Positions 3,453 to 43,787 of a stretch of DNA of 64,000 nucleotides are shown in pieces. The translations under genes were made by a program, and so were the position numbers. Source of the stretch: the human T2T-CHM13v2.0 reference genome, Homo sapiens; the NCBI RefSeq assembly GCF_009914755.1, contig NC_060934.1; one strand, given 5' to 3'. The first letter of the stretch is position 1; each line of letters begins with the position of its first letter. The notes beneath the pieces are model-generated. The model was not told where the DNA came from. It worked only from the letters and a program-made list of their open reading frames with translations, and did not search any database.

Positions 3453-6358
3453 TCACTCCACTTTCATTGGGGGGAGATTTGCAGTTAATTCCAATTTGAA
3501 TAATATCTTTGTAACTAAATTTATCACGAAGCTCAACATGACAATTTAGTATAGTTAATCTCCATTTCGTTTTACTTTTGCACAACTTTTCCAGTGAAGT
3601 GATCCTCTGAGATTAGGACTAGTTGAAATCGTAGGGCAAATATATAAATTGTTTAGAAGGAAGCCTTAAGATGCTTTAACTCATGCAATGAATTTGAACA
3701 TAGAAATGAGAGGAAAGCTTGGATAATTTTATAATGAAAGGCTAAGCATGTTTTCCCCTCAAGAGGAAAAATTTAAATTTCAAACTGAGTATTACTCAAA
3801 CATTAATCATTTAACTGTATAGCATGGGACATTTTGGGCATGGCAAATTCTAATGGAGGAGACTGCTAGAAATTCTCAGCCACACAGAAATCTGACTGCT
3901 TAATTTTGAAAGCTGCAGAGCTGTTAGAGCTGCAGAGCTGCTTCAATCTTTAAGGGAACTGTGGAAGTAAACCAGGGGTGACATGGATTATCAAATATTG
4001 TGGATCAGGTGAGCTCTAGGCTTCTCAATGCAAGGTAATTACCCTGCACTTTCATCTATTTTATAATATTGCCTTTATTTTTTTCCATGAAAGAGTTAGG
4101 TTTGGAAAAACAAGAAAAACACGGTTAAAATTATTTCTCTAGTGAATTGGTTGTGTTTATAAATCTTTAGCTTAGCTTGAGTCCCCCTTTGTGAAATGTA
4201 TAAATCCTTTTGATACATTAACAAACACTTGGAAAATGACTTAACTTATTAAGTTGAATTCTCTAATATAAGGGTTATAAGTGAAGGCTTAATTATTCAG
4301 CATTACTGAATTCAATATATCTGCCCTTTCAGTTTGCCTAGGGTGACAAATACATTTCCCATTACAGCTTGCCAATGTAACACAGCCTTATTTCATTTTT
4401 GTTGTAAATAGAATCACATTCTAATATGTTTTAGCTGAAAACAGCAAAGTATATATTCAACTACTTCCCAATAGGGAAAATTTTTAAAAAAAGTTATTTC
4501 TTTAGCCCAGAGCTTTATTTTCCTTTTACATAACAGAAAAATACTTGGTGTGAAATAAAACCTTCTTACACGTAATGAGACCCCATAGAATTTTAATGAA
4601 AGACAATTGAAGACCCATTTTTAAATAAGCCATTGGGAAGAATTAATATAATTAAGAATAGAAAAAAACTAGATAAAGTTACAAGAACAACCTAGGAACA
4701 TTTCTATATTTCTTCCTCATTTTCTGGAGTTTTAAAAGATGTTGAAACATTTTGACAGCTATAGAAAATGACCTAGGGACAAATATACTCTCTATTCCTG
4801 ACATAAAATGATATGCTTATTTTGTTTCTCATAAAACTCAGCATAAAACTATATACCTAATAGTTATTTAAAAGGAGTTCCTAAAAATAAATATATTCAT
4901 TATTAATATGTGACATGACTGAGTTACTTTTGAAAAACTACAAATTATTCAACATACTTTAACGTAGGATTTAGTATCAATATGGTATCCATTTCTTGAT
5001 TCTGTTTTTCATAGTGCACTTAAATATATATGTTAATACTTTTGAATAAGTGCATTATGCTATGAAATGTTTTAATGAGAAAAATGAATCTATACAAAGC
5101 AACTTCATTTATATTTTGTTCCTGTCATGTTACATTGCTGATATTTTGTATTATACTAGACGACTCATTTTTAAATACATAATTGTATATGAAGTTCTCA
5201 ATGTTAATGTCTGGAGGATACAGAATCAAAACAGAAGTTAAAAAATTAAAAGTAAACTATATTTTGCATATGAATAAGAATATTACAAATACCATATTTA
5301 TATACTATGTTTATATATCTTTACACTATGCCAAAAGGTATATATGGCAGATAGAGAAATAATATCTCTGCATAAACATAAAATCAAGATACGTAATATT
5401 TTAAAATGTTTTTCATTGAAGTGTAATTGACATAAACTGAACATATCCAGTGTATTTTTAAAGTTTTGGCATATTGGTACACGAGAAAACACCATGGCAA
5501 TCAAGATCATGAACATATTCACTTCCCTAAAGTTATTTTGTGTCTTTAGTAATCGCTTCTTCCCCTCTTCCCTACTCAATCTCCATGCAACTACTAATCT
5601 ATTTCTGATACTACAGAATGGTTTACACTTGGTAGAATTTTATGTAAATGGAGTCACACAAAATCTATTCTTTTTTGTCTGTCTTTTGCACTCAACATAA
5701 CTACTCTGACTTTCGCCTATGTTGATACTGGTAACAATAGTTCATTCTTTTTTTAATAGATTTTATTTTTAGAACAATTTTAGGTTTATAGTAGAAACTA
5801 ACAAAGCAGAGAGAATTTCCATACACTTTCTCCTACTCTCCATGTTCTTTATGATTAATATCTTGAATTAGTGTGGTACATTCGTTATAATTGATGCATC
5901 AGTATTGACATTATAAATGAAAGTCCATAAATTAGTTTTATATTAGCGTTCACTCTTGACATTATACATTTCATGCGTTTGGACAAATGCATATGTCATG
6001 TAACCACTACTACAATATTATAAGAATAGTTTTACTTTCTTAAAAATTTCTGTGCTTGATTTATTCATCCCTTCCCTTGGAGACTACTGGAAATTCTGAT
6101 CTTTTTACAGTTTTTCCCTTTTTAAGAATGTTGTATCATTGGAATTATACAGTATACAGCCTTTTCAGATTAGCTTCTTTCACTAAGTTGTAGGCATTTT
6201 AGGTTCTTGCATGTTTTGTATGGTTTGATAGCTTATTTTTTAATCACTGAATATCCCATTTTATAGATATGCTAGTTTATTGAACCATTACTCACCTGTT
6301 GGCGGCATCTGGTAGCTACCAAGTTTTGTTATGAGAAAAGCTATTTTAAGGAGTCATG

Positions 6359-25735: not shown

Positions 25736-27293
25736 AACATGAAGCTGAAGCTGAGATGCGCTTGCCACTCCAGGGGCATCCTGAGCCTTTGGAAAGAACC
25801 CATCGACAGGGTTCTCAGAAACATCAGAGCCACATTTTCTCAGGGGGGCCTCCCTGTCTCTCCAGAACCCAGCTCCCAGCACCCCTAAGGACAGAGCCTG
25901 CCCAGCTCTGCCCGTGTCACTTCACTGACCCCCACCCCTGCCAGGCTTCACCCACACCTGCAGGGCCAGCACCCAACATGCTGAGAGAATGGGGACCCAG
26001 AACCAGATGAATACATCAGGGGAAACCGAATCCATTCTCTCTTGGGGTCCTGAGCCTCCCAGTGACAGAAGATCCAGGAGATGCGAGTGGGAGGTCGCCC
26101 TAACAGGATCTAACATCATGCTCCAGATTGCTGAAGGAACACAGATCGGTGCCTCCTCTCCTTGACTCTACCCTCCTCACTCCTTAGCACCAGGCCTGGC
26201 TGTACATCCCTGCCAAGGTGCAACTAAGACCTTCACCTGCAGCTCAGGGGTGCCCCAGACAGGAGCACAAGAGGAGGCTCATCCCCACCCACAACCCAGG
26301 CCGGAGCGAATCTGGCTGCCCAGGCTCTGTGTCTGGCTTCTGCCCCAGGACCTGAGCCCGTGTAAACTCAGGCTTCCTTGGCCTGCCCTCCCCAGGCCCA
26401 GGTTCTAAAGGTGTGCTCCCCACCACTTCCTTGTTGCTCCTCCACTTTGTCCCTAGAATTACAGCCCAGCTCTAGGTGGGACTGTGAAGCTCTGCCCAAT
26501 GCTTTCCACAAGAAGTCAGATTCAGGCCCTTGTGCCTGAAGACTCCTTGTGAAGACTAGATGACACCTTCTCCAAGAGCAGCTAAGGAATCACCTTGGTT
26601 CCTCAGGCTGAGTATACATTTTCTGTACGGAACTTCAGAAAGAAATGGTCAACATTCATTCCTCACTTCACCAGAGAAAGAAGAAAATGTCACGTGCCTT
26701 TGATTCCCTCTTTTTACCAAGACTCCACTGAGATAAAACTCCTAACACAGAAACCAACACATATTCTCAACACTGGGTACCTGCTGGAGGTCCTGCCTTA
26801 GCCCCGAAGCCTCAGGTTCCCATGGGGACAGGTTGGTTGAGAACTGGTGGCCTAGCTCTCAGCCTGACACCCAACAGTATCCCCACCCAGGAGGCAGATG
26901 GTAGTGCAGGCACAGGTTCTGCAGGCTTTCATCTCGTGGAACGTATGTTAGAGGGTGTCCTCGTCACTCGCCATGCCCCAGAGGAATCAGCAGGGACATC
27001 AGGACTGAGAGAAGACATGGCACATGTGACCTCCTGTCCTGGAAACCCCACATCTTTCTGACTGTGCTGATCACACGGACAATATCTAGAAAAGTTCTGC
27101 TCTGCACAGTGTTCTGTCTACCAGGCCCACCCATCTGAGGACCCAGATGCTAGGAACACACAGATACTGAAGGAGCAACCACCTGCCTAAGGTGCAGGTA
27201 CCCCTGCATCCATCTGTAGGAGGAAAAGCAAGAAACTACCATTTATATGGATTCTTTGGCCCTAAGAATGAACCACCTATTTAGGAGTAACAC

Positions 27294-27356
27294 AGTGATG
27301 CAGAATGACCAGGGAGGGTCTTTCTCAACCATGCTCCCTGGTCATTCTGCATCACT
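27294..27356. repeat. Perfect 23-bp inverted repeat with 17-nt spacer (hairpin)
   Basis: agtgatgcagaatgaccagggag (27294-27316) / ctccctggtcattctgcatcact (27334-27356). Confidence 0.95.
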
Positions 27357-27810
27357 ACAATACACATAGAATCCCCAGAATACACACCTATTAAAGCCTC
27401 AATATTCTTGCTTCATACAAACATTTGCTTACAGATCCTGAACACACACACCGCCCCCCACCCCAGTGGTGTGTTGCTAACTGCTTAATAAAATGCTCTC
27501 CAGGGGGAAATAGGAAAGCCTAGAATTGTGATGCTTAAGTGGTGTAAGTATCTCAGCATGACTAATTTTAAACTACCAACCTAACGCCACTGAACACAGA
27601 GATGAGAAGAGATGTGCTGTGCCCAATGGCTACCCCAAGCCAGTACAAGCCAGCTCCAGCACAGCCACATCCTTTCATAGGAATATGTGTACACAATCTA
27701 CCTGCACCCTGAGTAGGACCCACAACTCTCACCCCAAATATAAAAACAAAACCAAACGATGTACCTCCAGAACACAACCTCCTCATATATCCTGAACAGA
27801 CACACACAAC

Positions 27811-35293: not shown

Positions 35294-38200
35294 GTAAGCC
35301 TGTAGGGATGAGGGCATTATCTGAGTCTGCCATGCCTCAACTCCTTAGGAATTCAAATTTGACACTGCCCCGGGGACAGTTGATAGGGCTGATGTTGAGG
35401 AGGGAGGGAAGACTGGATGTCCCCAAGGACATCACACCTGGGGATGGCCATGGCACCCTGAGTCTGTGTTTAGGGAGGACGGCCTCTTAGAGGTGGAACA
35501 AGATGGCTGGGGGAATACACCGTGTAGGAGAAAGGACAGAGTGGATGGATTGATCCTTTCTAGAAGGAGACAGGTCACGTCATTGTGTGTTTGTAGGGAG
35601 TGGTGGGATCATGTTGTGCTGGTGGCCCCGGGAGGATGATAGGCAAGCCTGAACCCTGTGTCATATCTTCAGGCACCTGGAAGGTGCCCTTCCATAGTGT
35701 TCAGAGAGATTTGGACTGGAGTTTTCTAGATCTTAGGGAGGAGTGGGGAGAAGTGGTCTCAGCCAGAAAACTGTTGGGTGGGTTGGCTGTGACAGAGCAT
35801 GTAGTGACAGCCCCTGGGTGGGCGAGGCTGGGGGCTGCTGTAACTGCCACAGCCCAGAGCCCCTCAGCTCTCTCCCTAGAGATGGCTTCTCTGTCAGTTC
35901 AGGTAGCTGTTGGCTTTGATTTAACAGGGGTGGGGGCAGATGAGGAAGTTCAGGCAACACAGGGCCTGGGTTTCCTGAGTTGTTCTGAATTGTTTGCCCT
36001 TTTGTGGAAGCTCAGGTCTTCAGACCCACTTCCTCTTGTCTGCTAGCTCATGGCCTGTCCTCTGCACTTTGTGTTACTGTGGAGATGAAGAATTTGCTCC
36101 TATTCCATTTATACTACCTCATGAACGGGGGGCAGGTGTGGATTCTTGCTGGTTCTCAGTGGAAGGGTCTGGAAAGGCTGGTTTCCTTTTCAGTAGAGGA
36201 AGGAGAGTAGCGCACGAATAGGAAGATGGTTCTCTTATTATTATTATTCAAGTTAGGATATGTGTCCTGAATGATGAGGTGCATGTGCTGTATCCCTTAT
36301 TCCCCTTGACTAGAGACTGCATGAGGTCCTATTGAACAGGGATGAGTTCCAGACAACTTTGCCTCACCCGGCCCATGGCCCAAGAACCCCTGGTTTTTGG
36401 TTGGTCACTATGTTCAGTTATTAGGAGCTCAAAGGAGAAGGGCCAGGGATGGGCTCCTTGTCCCACTACCTATTGTATCATGACCAGCAGCTGTGAAAAT
36501 CCCTAGACACCTCCCCTGTTAGCTCTGCTGCTCGCCATTTGCTGGCTGTGTTCTAATCGTGTGTGGCTTTTGCTGGCTATGCAGTGACACTGTCTCAGGG
36601 GACTCCACCACTGCCTCTCAGACCTGCTCCCTGGGAACAGAGCTTCCTGAGTGGCAGCCGGGACCATCGAGTACTGCGGAAAGGGTGGCCCGAATCTGAC
36701 CCCTATTTAGCACTTGCTGTGGGTGGTGCCAGGACAATCACTTGCATGCTGGGCATGACGAGTTATGGATTATCTTCAGGGTTCCTAGGGCGCTGGCTTG
36801 GGAAAGATTTCCATCCAGTGGTTTTGTTTTGGTATGTCTGAGCTGGGAAAGAAAGGGGTTTACAAGAGCGTCAGGAAAAGGAAGATTGAAGAGGAGATGG
36901 GGCCATAATATTCGGAAGCTTCTGGCTTCCTGTCGGCCTTCTGAGTGCGGAGCACTGCCCTGGGGTAGGCCCCTCACCTGTTGCTGAGCACGCTGAGGAC
37001 CACCAGGCCGCTGAGAGACTCATCCCTGACCCATGGCTTGGGAGATGCCTGTGAGGCTGACAGGGTCTGCCAGGGACACCCGAGGGAGACGCTCGGGCAG
37101 CAAAGGCTTGGCTGTTACTTCTTGGGAGACAGGGGTCAGGGAGTCTTGGTGACCGGGGCCAGGCTCTCTAGTGGAGCGACTCTCCGTGGAGGAACAGAGC
37201 ATCCGATGCACACTCAGGGACATTTGCAAGCTGCAGTTTCCCTGTCATACGCCCTTAGCTGTTGGGACTCCCCTCTGATTCCCCAGTGACTAGTGTGGAC
37301 CTGGAGACCCCAGCTCATTCACCTCTTTCCTTTGTCTCCACAGCATACCCAGTGCTGGGACCGGGCGTGACCGCGAACCCTGGCACCTCCCTGTCTGTGT
37401 TCACGGCTCTGCCCTTCACCACACCCGCTCCCGGCCCAGCACACGGGCCGCTCCTTGTGACTGCAGGGGCTCCTCCAGGCGGCCCTCTGGTGCTGTCTAC
37501 CTTCCCCAGCACACCTCTGGTGACAGAACAGGATGGCTGCGGCCCGAGTGGGGCCGGGGCTTCCAACGTCTTTGTCCAGATGAGGACAGAGGTGGGGCCT
37601 GTGAAGGCCGCTCAGGCGCAGACCTTGGTCCTAACTCAGGCCCCCCTCGTCTGGCAGGCTCCAGGCGCCCTCTGCGGAGGTGTTGTGTGTCCACCTCCCC
37701 TACTCCTGGCAGCTGCTCCTGTGGTGCCTGTTATGGCTGCCCAGGTGGTTGGGGGCACCCAGGCCTGTGAGGGAGGCTGGTCCCAGGGCCTTCCTCTTCC
37801 ACCACCACCACCACCGGCTGCCCAGCTGCCCCCCATTGTGTCCCAAGGGAATGCTGGGCCATGGCCACAAGGGGCTCATGGAGAGAGCAGCCTGGCTTCC
37901 TCCCAGGCCAAGGCCCCGCCAGATGACTCCTGTAACCCCAGGAGTGTCTATGAGAACTTCCGACTCTGGCAGCACTACAAGCCCCTGGCCCGGAGGCACC
38001 TTCCCCAGAGTCCTGACACCGAAGCGCTTTCGTGCTTCCTCATGTGAGTGTCCTCGGGGCATTGGAGCTGGTCCTGCAGCTCACACGTAAAGAGGCTGCT
38101 GGATGGACGGGAGGTCACGCTGTTCAGGGGAGCTTGCAGGGCGGTTGTGAGGGTGATGGGCTGCACTATGGGAAGGTACATTTTCAACCATATTAATCTG

Positions 38201-41200
38201 GCTGCGGCTCAGGACAGACTGTCAGGGGCCTCATCTCAACTGCCCGTCACTGTCCCGTGAGTCCGGCCAATCCTTACTTTCAATAATTTTCACAACAATG
38301 TTTACAGAAGACCCAGGTCAGAGAGGGTTCCTGGTGTGACGTGAGCTACGGTTTGGGTTTAGGTCTTTGAGTACACACCCCAGTGCCTCCCCTTTAACCC
38401 AGTATTGATGGCCAGGAGCACCTCACATGGGGCCGGGGGGAGGAGCTGCAGGGCCCAGCAGGAACCTGGCACATGCCTGCAGTTCCGCTGAGGTCCAGTT
38501 AGCACAGCGGTGGTGGAGCCTGCATAGGGGGATGGTCTCGGGCCCTGCACTGGGGCCGATGCCGGGCAGGTATTTGCATCTTCACCCTCAATCCCTCCTA
38601 GAAAAAGGGACAATGATGCTTCATTCAGAGGATGGTGAAGAGATAACTTGAGCTCACATATGACATGCATAGCACAGTGCCTGGCACATGCTATGACACA
38701 TTACATGACAGCAGTTACGATTACTGTCCCCATTACTATCATTATCAAGACTAGGCCATCTAGGAGAGCACTCCCCAAAGCCACGGGCTCCAGTGATAGC
38801 TCTGAGTGCACCATGAGTCCAGCAGCCCAGGGCCATGGACTGTGGTGACTGTGAGGCAGCAACGTCAGCATCTGGGAGAGTTTGTGGTTTCATTCCCAGT
38901 CCCTGCCTCTCTCCACCCTGCGGTGCCTCTGTGACCCTGTGTTTCCCGCTGATGAGCAAACGGGAGCTTGAGCACATCCACCGTGCAACACACTGGCCGT
39001 TCCCCTAGGGAAGTCCCCTGCCTGGGGTGTAGGTGAAAGGTGGCCCCATTTTCATCCCCCAAAATCTCGCTGTTCCCGCACCCTGGAACTGGTTGCATTC
39101 CTCCTTGGAGCGGAGTCCCGGTGCACTGGGGACCCTGATTCTTGGGGTGGAGCTGCCCCAGGCTCACAGGCCTTTGCCATGGCTCCTGTGGGAATGTGGG
39201 ATCTGGACCTGCTGCTTGCAGTGGCGTGGACACCGCTCTGCTTTGGTTCTGGACGTGTGCTCCTGCTCCTCATGCTCCAGGGCCCTGAGGCTACGTCCCC
39301 AGGGGCTGCCTTGCTCCAGAGTCCCCAGGAAGCCGGTTAAATGCTCAGTCTTGGGGCCCTGGAACCTGCACTTTAACCCTCACCCCCAGGTCATTCTGTG
39401 TGCACGCTGTCTCAGTCAGCTCAGGCTCTGCCGTAACGAATGCCGTAGACTGGGTGCTTTATCAAGACACATTCATGTCTCCCAGTTCCAGAGGCCAGAA
39501 GTCCCAGATCAAGGTGACAGCAGATTGGGTGTCTGGTCAGGGCCCTCCTCCTGGCTGGAGAGAGCTGTCTCTGGCTATGTCTCCTCGTGGCTGAGAGCAA
39601 GAGCCCTGGCGTCTCCTTCTGCCCTTATCAGGGCTTGGATTCCATGACTGGGACCCACGCTCATGACCTGCTTTAACCCTGATTGCCTCCAAATACTGAC
39701 ACACTGGTGCTGAGGGCTTCAGCACAGGAATGTTGGAGACACACATGTTCCACCCATAGTACTGAGTCCACTTCTCAACACTGAGGACTCGAGGGGCAGT
39801 CGGAGAGGCCACTTGGTAGCTTGTGTTGATGTTTGATCTTGGGGTTGTGTTCTGGGGCCTGAGGAGCCCACATGGGGGAGAACAGGACAGGGACAGATGG
39901 CGGGACAGGTGTGGGGAGGACAGGGGCCAGGTGTTGGGACCAGGTGGGCTTGGGATGAAGGGTGGGCTTATAGACTGAGACTGACTGCACTGGTTTACAG
40001 CCCAGTTCTCCGATCGCTGGCCCGGCGGAAGCCCACCATGACCCTGGAGGAGGGACTGTGGCGGGCCATGCGGGAATGGCAGCACACGAGCAACTTTGAC
40101 CGGATGATCTTCTACGAGATGGCGGAAAAGTGAGTCTGGGGTCCTGGGAGCAGGGCCCGCGTGGCAGGGTGAGAGTGAATGACAGAGGCCCGGTGGCCGT
40201 GGTGGCTTCTCAACGTGGAGTATGAGGAGGGTGTGGAGAAACCCAGGATACTCTGGGCCCCTGGCTCCCTCAGGAAGCTGCTCCTGCCACCTAGAGTGTT
40301 CTGGGGTCTCTGTCCTGGCCTATTGGGAAGCACCCCCTGCCTGGCCTGGGGCCATCCCTGCCTTGACACTGGAGGTCATGGCAGGAGCAGCCAGCATCAC
40401 AGCCCAAAGTGGGTCACCTCTAGCTGTGGGGATGGGGAGAAGGGGCGCTAGTGACTATGGACAAGAGTAGGGTGCAGGCTCCTCACAGCAGTGGCCAGAA
40501 GTCGGTTTTCTCCCATCCCAGCCTGGCCAGGGAGTTGGGTTGGGGAGATCTGCACCTGGGACACCATGGGACCCATCTCTGGCCTGACTGCCTTTGCTCC
40601 TGGGCAGTCCCCTCCATGAAGGCAGACAGATAGACAGCAGCCTCAGGGGAAAGGGGCCCTGTCCTCTGAGCTCAGCTTTTGCTTCCTCCTGACCAGGAGT
40701 CTCCCAGGCCTCGTGCCCCTGGGTTATCTTTCAGGGGCCCACAGTCCTAGCCTCAGGACTCCTGCATCTGGGCATCATCCCTGATGCCTTCTGCCATAAA
40801 TCCCACCCCTGGCCAGCTGAAACCTGGAGGAGGGGTCCCCCGAGACCCTCCTGGACCTCGTGGCCCTGAGTTGAGTCAGGAAGCCCCGTTGATGCCATGG
40901 GCTCTGCAGGGGCCGGGTGAGGGAGGGTGAGCCCGGAACTCTGGGAGCAGTTTTCTCCTGGGACTGGGGGATGGGACACAGTGAGGGCCTGGACAGCCCA
41001 CCCGAGGCACTCCCTCCTATCCCTGCCCTCGGCCGCTGCCTGGTCCTGCGGGGAGGGGGCCTGGACCCTCTCAGCACAGCCTGGGCCTCCTTCACCGCCA
41101 GGTTCCTGGAGTTTGAGGCTGAGGAGGAGATGCAGATTCAGAAATCGCAATGGATGAAGGGGCCCCAGTGCCTGCCTCCTCCAGCCACACCGAGGCTTGA

Positions 41201-43787
41201 ACCTCGAGGACCCCCGGCCCCTGAGGTGGTCAAGCAGCCAGGTATGGCTTCCCACATTCCCACAGGAGCCATGGCAAAGGCCAAAAGGGCCAAGGGAGGC
41301 CACTGTCCCCACACCCCATGCTTCCCTTCGAGAGGGGGATTTGCTCCCTCCAACAGGACAGTTTCCAGGAGCATATGTTCGGTATTGACCTGGTCAAGTT
41401 TCCTAGCTACTCTCTCCCCTCGCCTGTCCAAAACTCCACATATGCTCTGCCCAGGAAGCAGGGATGAGCGGGGAGAGTACACGGCATATTGGTGGCTCCA
41501 AACTTCCTCCCAAGCGATGCTGTCTCAGATGTGCCCCTCCTGCCTCCTCCGGGGGCGCTGCGGTTCAGGTGGTCCTGACCCAGCTGGGACCCACTTCACA
41601 TCCCCAAGCCCTGCCCTCCCCTGTGTGGTGCGAGCAGGAGGAGCGGCCCTCACCACGCCCGTCCTCCTCCCTCTCTGCCTCAGTGTACCTTCCCAGCAAG
41701 GCCGGCCCCAAGGCCCCGACTGCCTGCCTGCCACCACCCAGGCCCCAGAGGCCAGTGACCAAGGCCCGCCGGCCACCACCCCGGCCCCACCGGCGAGCAG
41801 AGACCAAGGCCCGCCTGCCACCACCCAGGCCCCAGAGACCAGCAGAGACCAAGGTCCCTGAGGAGATCCCCCCAGAAGTGGTGCAGGAGTATGTGGACAT
41901 CATGGAGGAGCTGCTGGGGCCTTCCCTCGGGGCCACGGGGGAGCCCGAGAAACAACGGGAAGAGGGCAAAGTGAAGCAGCCACAGGAAGAGGACTGGACG
42001 CCCCCAGACCCGGGCCTCCTGAGCTACATTGACAAGCTGTGTTCCCAGAAAGACTTCGTCACCAAGGTGGGCTGGCCTGGAGTGCTGGGGTCTGCTGGAT
42101 TCCAGGGGCTGGCACTCCCAGGTCCTTGGAATTAAGCTCTGTTCCTTAGCTACTCAGCAGTGTGTGTATTTCCATGGATTTGAGTGTCTGTGTATGTGAT
42201 TGTGTGTGTCTGTGTGTTGCTGTGTGTTTGTGTCTGTGGTTTGTTACTGTGTGTCTTTGTGTGTCTGTGTAGGTGTGAGTGTGGAGTGTGTACGTTACCT
42301 GTGTCTGTGTCTTTTCCTGTGTCATATGTGGGTCTGTTTGTGTGTCTGTGTGTGGTTTGTGTGTCTCTGTCTGTGTGTGTGTAGCTACCAGGTCTGTGGT
42401 CTGTGTCTGTAGCTGGTGGTCACCATGATATGAGACAGCCCCAGGAGGGTGGGGACGGGGCGCTCGCTGCTTTCTGCATCTCCTCCAGGTGTCCTTGGCT
42501 CCAGGTTACTCCCTGCCCAGGAAGCTCACGCCTTCTTCCTTCTGTTTCCAGGTGGAGGCCGTCATTCATCCCCAATTCCTGGAAGAATTGCTTTCCCCAG
42601 ATCCACAGATGGATTTCTTGGCCCTAAGCCAGGACCTGGAGCAGGAGGAAGGACTCACCCTTGCCCAGGTACCCCAGGGGCAGGAGGGACCTGGCACACA
42701 AGGCCCACCTGATTGTCTAATCCCCCCCGCTGGGGATGCTCGGCTTCTTGGGGAGCCACTCTGGAGTGGGAAGATGCAGGTTCAGAGGGAGTAGGATGGA
42801 CAGGAGCCAGGGAGGGGAGTCAGCATGCAAGCTGTGGTGAGGCCCAACGGGAGGCCCGGCAGAGCCACACCCTCTCTCTTTGACATAAAGCCCAGCTGCC
42901 TCAGGCTTCCCTACCTGCCGCCTAAGTGCCCTGGTCTCCACCACCCTGGGCCCTGCTCACACCTGGGGCAGTGCCAGTAAGTGCCCCCTTTCCTCCCGCA
43001 GCTAGTGGAGAAGCGCCTCCCACCCTTGAAGGAGAAACAGCATGCGAGGGCAGCCCCTAGTCGTGGCACAGCCCGGTTGGACTCAAGTTCTTCTAAGTTT
43101 GCAGCTGGCCAAGGAGCAGAGAGAGACGTCCCTGACCCCCAACAAGGGGTTGGCATGGAAACCTGCCCACCCCAGATGACTGCCCGGGACTCTCAGGGAC
43201 GAGGCAGAGCACACACTGGCATGGCCAGGTCCGAAGACTCTGTTGTGCTTTTGGGATGTCAGGATTCCCCTGGGCTGAGGGCTGCCTGGCCAACCTCTCC
43301 TCCCCAGGACCACAGACCCACCTGCCCTGGCGTGGGTACCAAGGATGCCTTGGATCTCCCTGGAGGGTCTCCTGTCAGGGAGTCACATGGGCTGGCTCAG
43401 GGGTCAAGTGAGGAGGAGGAACTCCCCAGCCTGGCCTTCCTCTTGGGTTCCCAGCACAAGCTTCTGCCCTGGTGGCTACCCCAGAGCCCTGTCCCTGCCT
43501 CGGGCCTTCTCAGCCCAGAAAAGTGGGGACCCCAGGGAACTCATCAGTCCCCATCTGCTGAGAGAAGAGGCCTCAACCTAGCACCTTCTCCTGCCAACAA
43601 GGCCAAGAAGCGACCTCTCTTTGGAAGCCTGTCCCCTGCTGAAAAGACACCCTACCCAGGGCCTGGGCTCAGGGTCTCTGGGGAGCAATCCCTGACTTGG
43701 GGGCTGGGTGGCCCCTCACAGTCTCAAAAGAGAAAGGGTGACCCCTTGGTCTCCAGGAAGGAGAAGAAGCAGCATTGTAGCCAGTAG
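34912..43787 (+). CDS. NUTM2B: NUT family member 2 (FAM22 family), 7 coding exons, 878 aa
   Basis: Exon lengths 382+700+129+140+383+117+786=2637 nt give one open frame [11 protein letters not shown]...[13 protein letters not shown]...[88 protein letters not shown]...EKKQHCSQ*. This contains the NUT-domain signature. Paralog assignment rests on recalled residues ([18 protein letters not shown]) and on the upstream BEND3 pseudogene. Confidence 0.9.
37344..38043 (+). CDS. NUTM2B: NUTM2 coding exon 2
   Basis: Acceptor tttgtctccacag|CA, donor CTCAT|gtgagt. Encodes (A)YPVLGPG...EALSCFL(I). Confidence 0.95.
39408..39761 (-). mobile_element. MLT1A-like MaLR LTR in NUTM2 intron 2
   Basis: tgtctcagtcagctcaggct...cagttccagaggccagaagtcccagatcaagg...gggcttcagcacaggaa. 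Confidence 0.8.
40001..40129 (+). CDS. NUTM2B: NUTM2 coding exon 3
   Basis: Acceptor ggtttacag|C, donor GAAAA|gtgagt. Encodes [20 protein letters not shown]...YEMAE(K). Confidence 0.95.
41102..41241 (+). CDS. NUTM2B: NUTM2 coding exon 4
   Basis: Acceptor ccttcaccgccag|G, donor CCAG|gtatgg. Encodes [11 protein letters not shown]...VVKQP. Confidence 0.95.
41684..42066 (+). CDS. NUTM2B: NUTM2 coding exon 5
   Basis: Acceptor ctctctgcctcag|TG, donor AAG|gtgggc. Encodes (V)YLPSKAGP...[19 protein letters not shown]...DFVTK. Confidence 0.95.
41725..41856 (+). repeat. Coding tandem repeat (3 x 42-45 bp) in exon 5
   Basis: ccaccaccc(a/c)ggcccca...accaagg encoding [14 protein letters not shown] / [15 protein letters not shown] / [13 protein letters not shown]. 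Confidence 0.9.
42160..42410 (+). repeat. Degenerate (TG)n tract in intron 5
   Basis: About 250 bp of tgtgtgtc-type repeats. Confidence 0.9.
42552..42668 (+). CDS. NUTM2B: NUTM2 coding exon 6
   Basis: Acceptor ttctgtttccag|GTG, donor CAG|gtaccc. Encodes [39 protein letters not shown]. Confidence 0.95.
43002..43787 (+). CDS. NUTM2B: NUTM2 coding exon 7 (terminal)
   Basis: Acceptor ctttcctcccgcag|CTA, stop TAG at 43785-43787. Basic NLS-like patches (KAKKRP, KRKGD, RKEKK). Confidence 0.95.

What the first reader, a model, noticed from the sequence alone, without database searches (positions are those of the whole stretch)
39169..41282. Perfect 33-bp intronic inverted repeat bracketing NUTM2 exons 3-4: candidate long-range RNA splicing switch
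Seen: 39169-39201 (intron 2) is the exact reverse complement of 41250-41282, which starts at position +9 of intron 4, right behind the exon-4 donor. Neither arm looks like a known transposon. A weaker, correctly nested outer helix is also visible (tcccc, agggaag, tggggtgt and gtggcc at 39001-39045 versus ggccac, acacccca, cttccct and gggga at 41298-41339). Established: complementary intronic sequences can loop out exons, mask splice sites or drive back-splicing. Inference: the duplex would loop out exons 3+4 (269 nt, core NUT domain). Joining exon 2 to exon 5 shifts frame into [10 protein letters not shown]... with a stop at 41859-41861, ~200 nt before the next junction, which makes it an NMD target. 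A 269-nt circRNA is the alternative outcome. These introns are retained in YWHAE-NUTM2 fusion alleles, so such a switch could tune oncoprotein output. I know of no description of this element.
Basis: partly seen in the sequence, partly recalled or inferred. Interest (0 to 1): 0.8.

Follow-up and report, generated by a model that had tools for sequence, protein, structure and literature searches.

The report
Inverted copy of NUTM2 splice donor
An intron of the human NUTM2 genes holds a backwards copy of a downstream exon-intron junction, so the RNA could fold over and hide that splice site, but nothing so far shows that this leftover of an old copying error is used.

Summary
The 33-nt perfect inverted repeat is real (39169-39201 vs 41250-41282). 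It is the intact core of a longer repeat. Complementarity continues across the exon-4 5' splice site to exon position -11 (left 39169-39218, right 41231-41282). In the two chr9 NUTM2 copies it is a 52-nt duplex with one mismatch and one G.U.

All 7 human NUTM2 copies carry both arms, and nothing else in the genome matched. The right arm is ancestral because it aligns with NUTM1 intron 4. The left arm is therefore an inverted copy of the donor junction placed in intron 2 before the chr9/chr10 split.

Folding predicts a very stable helix that pairs the 5'ss GU. That points to donor masking rather than clean loop-out or circRNA formation.

The arms are not clearly better conserved than the flanking intron, and covariation is not significant. 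Power is low, with only two deep lineages. Six literature searches found no prior description.

Verdict: an inherited inverted-duplication scar with real structural potential and no demonstrated function.

The parts
39169..39201 (+). Left arm, perfect 33-nt core, in intron 2. This is the derived, inverted copy.
   Evidence: Identical in all 5 chr10 copies; one A>T change in both chr9 copies.
39202..39218 (+). Left arm, splice-site-proximal extension. It is degraded in the chr10 copies and intact in the chr9 copies, where the whole arm is 52 nt.
   Evidence: In the window copy 39207-39217 pair with 41232-41243 in the MFE.
41231..41249 (+). Right arm, proximal part: the last 11 nt of exon 4, the GT donor and intron positions +1 to +8.
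   Evidence: G+1 and U+2 have P(unpaired) of 0.000 and 0.025.
41250..41282 (+). Right arm, perfect 33-nt core (intron 4, +9 to +41). This is the ancestral sequence.
   Evidence: It aligns with the start of NUTM1 intron 4; over the 52-nt arm 42 of 54 alignment columns are identical (hand count).
38995..39047 (+). Outer, weaker complementary layer, left side.
   Evidence: The inner outer-helix pairs have probability about 1.0.
41295..41345 (+). Outer, weaker complementary layer, right side (intron 4, about +54 to +104).
   Evidence: It lies 108 nt off the core diagonal, so it is not an ungapped extension of the core.
40001..40129 (+). Exon 3 (129 nt), enclosed by the duplex. It matches NUT family profile positions 233-274.
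   Evidence: Hub gene table.
41102..41241 (+). Exon 4 (140 nt). Its donor CAG|GTATGG lies inside the predicted helix. It matches NUT family profile positions 276-321.
   Evidence: Hub gene table.
41859..41861 (+). Premature TGA reached if exon 4 alone or exons 3+4 are skipped.
   Evidence: both skips give the same frame, and the stop lies 205 nt before the end of exon 5.

Best explanation
The 33-nt repeat is the intact core of an inverted duplication that was originally at least 52 nt long. A reverse-complement copy of the exon-4 donor junction (exon -11 to intron +41) was placed about 2 kb upstream in intron 2 of an ancestral NUTM2 gene. This happened before the chr9 and chr10 NUTM2 lineages split, most likely as one DNA-level event such as a replication or repair template switch or an inverted templated insertion. 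Segmental duplication then carried it into all seven human copies. It sits next to an older or independent weaker layer of inverted similarity.

Shown here:
- the anatomy of the repeat;
- the direction of copying (right arm ancestral, left arm derived);
- its presence in every paralog and its absence from NUTM1;
- a very stable predicted helix that includes the exon-4 5' splice site.

Inferred:
- If the helix forms in nascent RNA, that is if intron 2 is still present when the donor emerges, it would hinder U1 access to the exon-4 donor. That would divert some transcripts to exon 4 skipping, exon 3+4 skipping or intron 4 retention. The two skip products reach the same premature stop and should be NMD targets.
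- I read this as an unselected by-product of a mutational scar and not an evolved switch. The left arm evolves like its flanks, and its splice-site-proximal part has decayed in the chr10 lineage.
For: Anatomy:
- 33-nt perfect repeat.
- Gapped extension to 39218 / 41231.
- In both chr9 copies the repeat is 52 nt with 2 differences, one U.U and one G.U.
- Both ends are sharp. Ungapped identity beyond the distal end is 31%, against 27.4 +/- 5.0% on control diagonals, and 250 of 930 controls are as high.

Distribution:
- A 201-nt query gave 14 matches in the 3.1-Gb genome. All 14 are the left and right arms of 7 NUTM2 copies.

Direction of copying:
- The right arm includes coding exon sequence and aligns with the NUTM1 exon-4 homolog and its intron start.
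- NUTM1 has no inverted copy at the intron-2 site. The best inverted matches lie elsewhere and are weak.

No sign of selection on the structure:
- Introns 3-5 differ by 6.8% between chr9 and chr10. Of 3728 intronic 33-nt windows, 7.6% have no difference and 27% have one or none. The right arm has 0 differences. The left arm has 1 substitution plus an indel at its boundary.
- In the core, 31 of 33 pairs never vary, 1 becomes G.U and 1 becomes U.U.
- The single double change lies in the ambiguously aligned proximal segment, and 339 of 500 shuffles reach the same count.
Only chr9-lineage changes are therefore independent: 1 in 66 nt against about 2.2 expected, Poisson P(1 or fewer) about 0.35 (hand calculation).

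Structure:
- Duplex energy is -98.7 kcal/mol in the window copy and -118.6 in the chr9 copies. The best alternative partner gives -65.5.
- The MFE contains 33 of 33 core pairs plus pairing of exon -1 to -10 and G+1, U+2.
- Ensemble mean core pair probability is 0.999.

Mechanism precedent: template switching creates perfect reverse-complement repeats and stems in a single event (PMC8794818 abstract; PMC5453318 passages).
Against: - Taken together the two arms show 1 difference in 66 nt between chr9 and chr10, where about 4.5 are expected at 6.8% (Poisson about 0.06, hand calculation). Without the ascertainment correction this is a borderline hint of constraint.
- In the chr9 copies 51 of 52 positions still pair, even across the splice site.
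- Five of the 6 transitions seen in the core and outer helices keep pairing as G.U, or turn G.U into A-U. By my own estimate about half would do so by chance, giving a binomial probability of about 0.11.
- At the chr9/chr10 split the 52-mer was apparently perfect. That means either a recent origin at that time or maintenance by selection.
- Only two deep lineages are available, so conservation and covariation tests have little power.
- The 2-kb distance is longer than the short-range template switches catalogued in the papers I read.
- No expression, junction or structure-probing data could be examined, so a real regulatory effect is not excluded.
Confidence: 0.6

Rival explanations
1. Selected splicing switch. 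The duplex is maintained because it gates productive splicing of NUTM2 pre-mRNA. When it forms, the exon-4 donor is masked or exons 3-4 are looped out, the frame shifts, and NMD lowers NUTM2 output (and YWHAE-NUTM2 output in fusion alleles). Intron-2 removal timing, elongation rate, helicases or ADAR would set the balance.
For: - The helix is extremely stable and is predicted to pair the 5'ss.
- It is kept in all 7 paralogs.
- The core has 1 difference in 66 nt between lineages that differ by about 6.8% in introns 3-5.
- Both skip products reach an NMD-type stop.
- Long-range intronic structures are reported to suppress enclosed exons and obstruct splice sites (PMC8052449 passages).
- A validated inhibitory long-distance stem next to a 5'ss exists in SMN2 (PMC3783185 passages).
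Against: - There is no significant covariation.
- The left arm evolves like its flanks once ascertainment is allowed for.
- The splice-site-proximal part of the left arm is scrambled in the chr10 lineage. This looks like decay or relief from masking, not maintenance.
- NUTM1 lacks the repeat.
- The reference transcript includes exons 3 and 4 (hub table).
- No skip isoform was found in the literature searches.
Confidence: 0.15
2. circRNA driver. The arms act as intronic complementary sequences that bring the exon-4 donor and the exon-3 acceptor together and promote back-splicing into a 269-nt exon 3-4 circle.
For: - The arms lie in the introns flanking exons 3-4.
- At 33 nt perfect, they are within the roughly 30-40 nt reported as sufficient for circularization in expression plasmids (PMC4201285 abstract).
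- No competing perfect inverted repeat of 16 nt or more exists inside the gene.
Against: - The predicted helix includes the donor GU that back-splicing would need.
- The left arm lies 800 nt from the exon-3 acceptor.
- No NUTM2 sense-strand circRNA turned up. The papers I opened concern the NUTM2A-AS1 or NUTM2B-AS1 lncRNAs. Most of the papers listed were not opened.
Confidence: 0.1
3. Transposon terminal inverted repeats, or a chance match.
For: None beyond the bare fact that it is an inverted repeat.
Against: - 0 of 100 shuffles reproduce the match.
- All 14 genome matches lie in NUTM2 copies.
- The right arm contains coding exon sequence and a splice donor shared with NUTM1.
- There is no Rfam match.
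Confidence: 0.02

Closest known systems
Intronic complementary sequences that promote exon circularization (Liang and Wilusz 2014, PMC4201285; abstract read)
   Same: Reverse-complementary stretches lie in the two introns flanking the enclosed exons. The length is within the reported sufficient range of about 30-40 nt.
   Different: The sequence is unique, not Alu-derived. One arm abuts and, in its extension, covers the donor that back-splicing needs. No back-splice product is known.
SMN2 intron 7 ISTL1, an inhibitory stem formed through a long-distance interaction that starts near intron position +10 (Singh et al. 2013, PMC3783185; passages read)
   Same: One strand lies at about +8 to +10 of the intron just after a regulated exon. 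It pairs with a distant intronic sequence, and the effect there is inhibitory for that exon.
   Different: ISTL1 is short, lies within one intron and was validated by compensatory mutations. The NUTM2 helix is 33-52 bp, spans two exons and about 2 kb, reaches into the exon, and is untested.
[quoted passage not shown] 2021, PMC8052449; abstract and passages read)
   Same: Long-range intronic base pairing within 10 kb. These structures are reported to lower inclusion of looped-out exons and to obstruct splice sites.
   Different: PCCRs were called only inside elements conserved across vertebrates. NUTM2 is not mentioned in the main text (0 occurrences) or in the 3 readable supplements. Three large catalogue files could not be read.
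Template-switch mutations that create perfect reverse-complement repeats (Loytynoja and Goldman 2017, PMC5453318, passages read; Monttinen and Loytynoja 2022, PMC8794818, abstract read)
   Same: A short reverse-complement copy of nearby sequence with sharp ends, apparently perfect when formed, and able to make a stem in RNA.
   Different: Source and copy are about 2 kb apart, whereas catalogued events are short-range. No ancestral sequence lacking the copy could be aligned well enough to reconstruct the switch points.
hnRNP A1 exon 7B donor sequestered by a downstream intronic element (recalled from memory; paper not read)
   Same: An intronic element is complementary to a 5' splice site region and forms a duplex that lowers use of that donor.
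   Different: That element is downstream and close, and it is conserved. Here the masking strand is upstream, in another intron, and is a literal inverted copy of the donor junction.

Membership tests
Intronic complementary sequence pair that drives circRNA formation | Reverse-complementary sequences in the introns flanking the circularized exon or exons | tested here: met
   The left arm is in intron 2 and the right arm in intron 4, enclosing exons 3-4 (hub gene table).
Intronic complementary sequence pair that drives circRNA formation | Pairing of at least about 30-40 nt | tested here: met
   33 nt perfect. The threshold is taken from the PMC4201285 abstract.
Intronic complementary sequence pair that drives circRNA formation | A back-splice junction is observed and depends on the repeats | not testable with these tools
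   No RNA-seq data were available. The searches found no NUTM2 sense-strand circRNA among the papers I opened.
Intronic complementary sequence pair that drives circRNA formation | Donor and acceptor remain available to the spliceosome | tested here: not met
   In the predicted ensemble A-2, G-1, G+1 and U+2 of the exon-4 donor have P(unpaired) of 0.025 or less. This is a prediction only.
Long-range RNA structure that masks a 5' splice site | The helix includes 5'ss nucleotides | tested here: met
   Duplex prediction, MFE and partition function. In the chr9 copies the 52-nt arm spans -11 to +41.
Long-range RNA structure that masks a 5' splice site | Disrupting and restoring the helix changes splicing | not testable with these tools
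   This needs a minigene or ASO experiment.
Long-range RNA structure that masks a 5' splice site | Evolutionary support for pairing (covariation) | tested here: inconclusive
   There are 92 pairs and 5 distinct rows. One pair changes on both sides, and 339 of 500 shuffles reach that count. Only two deep lineages are available.
Template-switch or inverted templated duplication scar | A reverse-complement copy of a nearby sequence with sharp boundaries | tested here: met
Template-switch or inverted templated duplication scar | The source is identifiable as the older sequence | tested here: met
   The right arm aligns with the NUTM1 exon-4 and intron-4 junction.
Template-switch or inverted templated duplication scar | An ancestral or outgroup sequence lacks the copy at the target site | tested here: inconclusive
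   NUTM1 has no inverted copy, but its intron 2 aligns too poorly at this site to define an empty site. No other species were available.
Transposon terminal inverted repeats | The arms recur as a dispersed family | tested here: not met
   All 14 genome matches lie in the 7 NUTM2 copies. The tool warns that its counts are lower bounds.

The most novel reading that the evidence does not exclude
NUTM2 genes carry, in an upstream intron, an antisense copy of their own exon-4 donor junction. It would work as a built-in kinetic gate. If intron 2 is still unspliced when the donor is transcribed, a helix of about 50 bp hides the donor and sends the transcript to exon skipping or intron retention and decay. 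If intron 2 has already been removed, splicing proceeds normally. Output would then depend on elongation rate, splicing order and dsRNA helicases or ADAR. The chr9 copies (full 52-bp mask, weaker GTACAG donor) would be more repressed than the chr10 copies (mask partly eroded, donor GTATGG). The same gate would operate in YWHAE-NUTM2 fusion alleles and could be opened with an ASO against the left arm.
Probability: 0.12. Interest if true: 0.6.

Novelty: new member of a known kind. Interest (0 to 1): 0.3.

Why it matters
If the helix forms in cells, it would be a clear natural case of a gene masking one of its own splice donors with a literal inverted copy of that donor. It comes with a built-in comparison between paralogs: a full mask on chr9 and an eroded mask on chr10. 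It also offers a simple ASO handle on NUTM2 and YWHAE-NUTM2 expression.

If it does not form, it is still a well-documented example of how one inverted duplication creates a long perfect stem in a pre-mRNA, and of how that stem decays after segmental duplication. On present evidence it is an ordinary mutational relic with untested consequences.

Tried and rejected
1. Transposon or dispersed-repeat origin: rejected. All 14 genome matches lie in NUTM2 copies.
2. Known RNA family: none. There were 0 Rfam matches in the window at gathering score.
3. Ungapped extension of the core beyond 39169 / 41282: rejected. Identity is 31% against 27.4% on control diagonals, and 250 of 930 controls are as high. 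A 7-mer on the same diagonal is a coincidence.
4. A second candidate block, 39070-39135 versus 41320-41385: weak (8 of 761 control windows are as good) and not collinear with the outer helix. Not used.
5. The same repeat in NUTM1: not found. The three-way alignment at the left-arm site was too poor to define an empty site.
6. Default blastn found no intron similarity between NUTM2B and NUTM1. A more permissive scoring did.
7. Mononucleotide-shuffle controls for the flanks were marginal (3 of 200 and 4 of 200). I replaced them with dinucleotide shuffles and real-sequence controls.
9. Literature: six searches for a NUTM2 sense-strand circRNA, skip isoform, inverted repeat or catalogued long-range structure found nothing about this element. 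Passages read in five of the listed papers concern the antisense lncRNAs or NUTM2F as a duplicon. Three large supplementary tables of the PCCR catalogue could not be read, so the element might be listed there.
10. No comparison with other primates or mammals was possible. The tools hold no other eukaryotic genome.
Full report
**Observation.** The reported repeat is exactly as described. Positions 39169-39201 are the perfect reverse complement of 41250-41282: 33 nt, with 2048 nt between the arms. Allowing up to 3 mismatches, the 33-mer occurs only at these two places in the 64-kb window, and none of 100 dinucleotide-preserving shuffles gave two matches. Exon 4 ends at 41241 with donor CAG|GTATGG, so the right arm starts at intron position +9. 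Within the NUTM2B gene this is the only perfect inverted repeat of 16 nt or more. Across the window it is the second longest of 70 such pairs lying within 10 kb of each other. Most of the other long pairs look like Alu-Alu pairs, which I recognised from recall.

**The repeat is longer than reported and covers the splice site.**
- A gapped local alignment extends the match inward to 39218 on the left and 41231 on the right. That reaches across the GT donor into the last 11 nt of exon 4.
- A 201-nt query around the left arm gave 14 matches in the window's own 3.1-Gb genome. All 14 are the left and right arms of seven NUTM2 copies: five on contig C10 (51.53, 80.58 = this window, 80.72, 88.11 and 88.25 Mb) and two on C9 (106.49 and 109.11 Mb). 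By the hub's coordinates the 80.72-Mb copy is NUTM2E. Names for the other copies would be from recall.
- In both C9 copies the repeat is 52 nt long, from exon -11 to intron +41, with two differences between the arms. One is a U.U mismatch in the core. The other is a G.U opposite the U of the donor GU.
- In the five C10 copies the 33-nt core is intact, but the 19 nt nearest the splice site have diverged in both arms. The left arm has small deletions and substitutions. The right arm reads GTATGG where C9 reads GTACAG.
- The distal end of the repeat is sharp. Ungapped identity beyond it is 31%, against 27.4 +/- 5.0% on control diagonals, and 250 of 930 controls are as high.

**Which arm is the original.** The 46 residues encoded by exon 4 find the seven NUTM2 copies and, at 58% identity (E = 7.8e-6), one place on C15 that I take to be NUTM1. 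The other four listed matches have E above 1. The NUTM1 exon end and the start of its following intron align with the NUTM2B right arm and beyond. Over the 52-nt arm, 42 of 54 alignment columns are identical (my hand count). So the right arm is ancestral donor-junction sequence and the left arm is the inverted copy. NUTM1 shows no inverted copy of its own donor region at the corresponding intron-2 site. The best inverted matches in about 15.7 kb were weak and lay elsewhere. The three-way alignment at the site is too poor to show a clean empty site. At positions where the C9 and C10 left arms differ, one of them agrees with the right arm. The 52-mer was therefore apparently perfect at the C9/C10 split (inference).

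**The outer helix.**
- The duplex 38995-39050 with 41290-41345 has -59.4 kcal/mol, against -40.8 +/- 4.4 for 300 dinucleotide shuffles, none as low. The C9 copies give 13 of 300 and 1 of 300 shuffles as low.
- None of 772 real 56-nt intronic windows from the gene did as well, in either direction. An alignment score of 17 exceeded the control maximum of 14.5 (0 of 769 in the rerun).
- The pair was chosen after looking, so some correction for search space is due.
- It lies 108 nt off the core diagonal and is only about three-quarters identical, with indels. It is therefore a separate, older or independent layer and not part of the same event as the 52-mer. A neutral stretch of that age would not stay perfect over 52 nt (inference).

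**Conservation and covariation.**
- The C10 copies differ from the window copy by 0 of 5401 (80.72 Mb), 46 of 5401, 42 of 5399 and 97 of 5398 positions. The C9 copies differ from it by 626 of 4971 and 629 of 4972 aligned positions. In effect there are only two deep lineages.
- Against C9_109.11, introns 3, 4 and 5 each differ by 6.8%. Intron 2 differs by 11.4%, which includes a badly aligned 5' end. Of 3728 intronic 33-nt windows, 7.6% have no difference and 27% have one or none. The right arm has 0 differences. The left arm has 1 substitution, plus the indel flagged at its boundary.
- Together that is 1 difference in 66 nt against about 4.5 expected (Poisson about 0.06, hand calculation).
- The repeat was picked because it is perfect in C10, so only C9-lineage changes are independent: 1 against about 2.2 expected (P about 0.35, hand calculation).
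- The right arm has its own reason to be conserved, because it is conserved even against NUTM1.
- A formal pair count over core, proximal and outer helices covered 92 pairs and 5 distinct rows. In the core, 31 of 33 pairs never vary, one becomes G.U (C10_51.53) and one becomes U.U (both C9 copies).
- The single pair changed on both sides (C-G in C10, U-A in C9, at intron position +5) lies in the ambiguously aligned proximal segment. It can be explained by CpG transitions. 339 of 500 shuffles reach the same count, and 51 of 500 reach the observed covariation score.
- On this evidence the arms are not demonstrably more conserved than their surroundings, and covariation is not significant. Power is low.

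**Predicted structure.**
- Duplex prediction gives -98.7 kcal/mol for the window copy and -118.6 for the C9 copies, with the helix running through the donor.
- The best alternative partner for either arm elsewhere in the pre-mRNA gives -65.5.
- In the minimum-free-energy fold of the 3640 nt from intron 2 to intron 4, all 33 core pairs are present. In addition, 39207-39217 pair with exon positions -10 to -1 (except -4, which is bulged) and with G+1 and U+2.
- In the partition function of a 2551-nt construct the core pairs have mean probability 0.999 (minimum 0.979). A-2, G-1, G+1 and U+2 have P(unpaired) of 0.007, 0.000, 0.000 and 0.025.
- These are equilibrium predictions. They ignore proteins, helicases and co-transcriptional splicing.

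**Consequences for the message.**
- Exons 3 and 4 fall within the NUT family profile PF12881, at positions 233-274 and 276-321 of 731.
- Skipping exon 4 alone (140 nt) gives the same frame and the same stop.
- Intron 4 contains no in-frame stop.
- The predicted helix occupies the donor itself. The most direct expectation is therefore reduced use of the exon-4 donor, not a clean loop-out or a circle that needs that donor. This is inference.
- The left arm lies in intron 2, so the helix can form only if intron 2 has not yet been removed when the donor is transcribed about 2 kb later. Any effect should therefore depend on splicing order and elongation rate (inference).

**Literature.**
- Searches for NUTM2 with circRNA, alternative splicing, inverted repeat or back-splicing returned only papers on the antisense lncRNAs, on fusions, or on NUTM2F as a core duplicon. 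Most papers's listing were not opened.
- The long-range pairing catalogue paper does not mention NUTM2 in its text or in three readable supplements. Three large tables could not be read.
- A passage in PMC8557563 confirms that YWHAE exon 5 is joined to NUTM2A exon 2, so the repeat stays in fusion alleles.
- Context for mechanisms comes from four sources:
  - the Liang and Wilusz abstract, which reports repeats of about 30-40 nt as sufficient for circularization;
  - passages of the SMN2 ISTL1 paper;
  - passages of the PCCR paper;
  - the template-switch papers.

**Verdict.** The best-supported reading is an inherited inverted duplication of the exon-4 donor junction, made before the C9/C10 split and now partly eroded in the C10 copies. 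Its predicted RNA helix would mask the donor. A selected splicing switch is possible but not supported by the comparative evidence available here. A circRNA role is less likely because the donor is inside the helix. It is a new instance of known kinds (a long-range intronic pairing and a template-switch-type scar) and is of modest interest until junction data or a minigene test exists.

Noticed in passing
window 27294-27356 (+): A perfect 23-bp hairpin with a 17-nt loop. Folded as 27280-27370 it gives -47.6 kcal/mol, z = -8.1, and 0 of 200 shuffles fold as well. It is present in only three of the chr10 duplicated segments, at 80.565, 88.10 and 51.52 Mb, and has no Rfam match. It may be another template-switch-type palindrome or a young hairpin locus.
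   Followed up: partly
window 37300-42700 versus G000:C10:80713467-80718867: The NUTM2B stretch and the copy inside NUTM2E are identical at 5401 of 5401 positions. This points to a very recent duplication or gene conversion. Short reads cannot tell the two genes apart in this region.
   Followed up: no
window 41242-41400 (start of intron 4): The donor-proximal part of intron 4 is about as similar to NUTM1 as the neighbouring exon. Over the 52-nt arm 42 of 54 columns are identical (hand count), and one blastn block runs from exon 4 through intron 4 into exon 5 at 61%. This suggests constraint on the region that is independent of the inverted repeat.
   Followed up: partly
window 41102-42066: The exon-4 reading frame stays open through all 442 nt of intron 4. 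The open frame is 322 aa in the chr10 copies, 182 and 167 aa in the chr9 copies, and 84 aa in NUTM1. Intron-4 retention would therefore not meet a stop inside the intron.
   Followed up: no
exon-4 donors of the paralogs (window 41239-41247; loci L031 and L032): The donor hexamers differ: GTATGG in the chr10 copies, GTACAG in the chr9 copies and GTGAGG in NUTM1. The chr9 copies combine the weakest-looking donor (no G at +5) with the most complete masking helix.
   Followed up: partly
G000:C10:51527735-51533135 (L030): The 51.53-Mb copy is the most diverged chr10 copy (97 of 5398 positions). It carries several changes in exon 3 and a C>T in the right arm that turns one core pair into G.U. It may be a decaying copy.
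   Followed up: no
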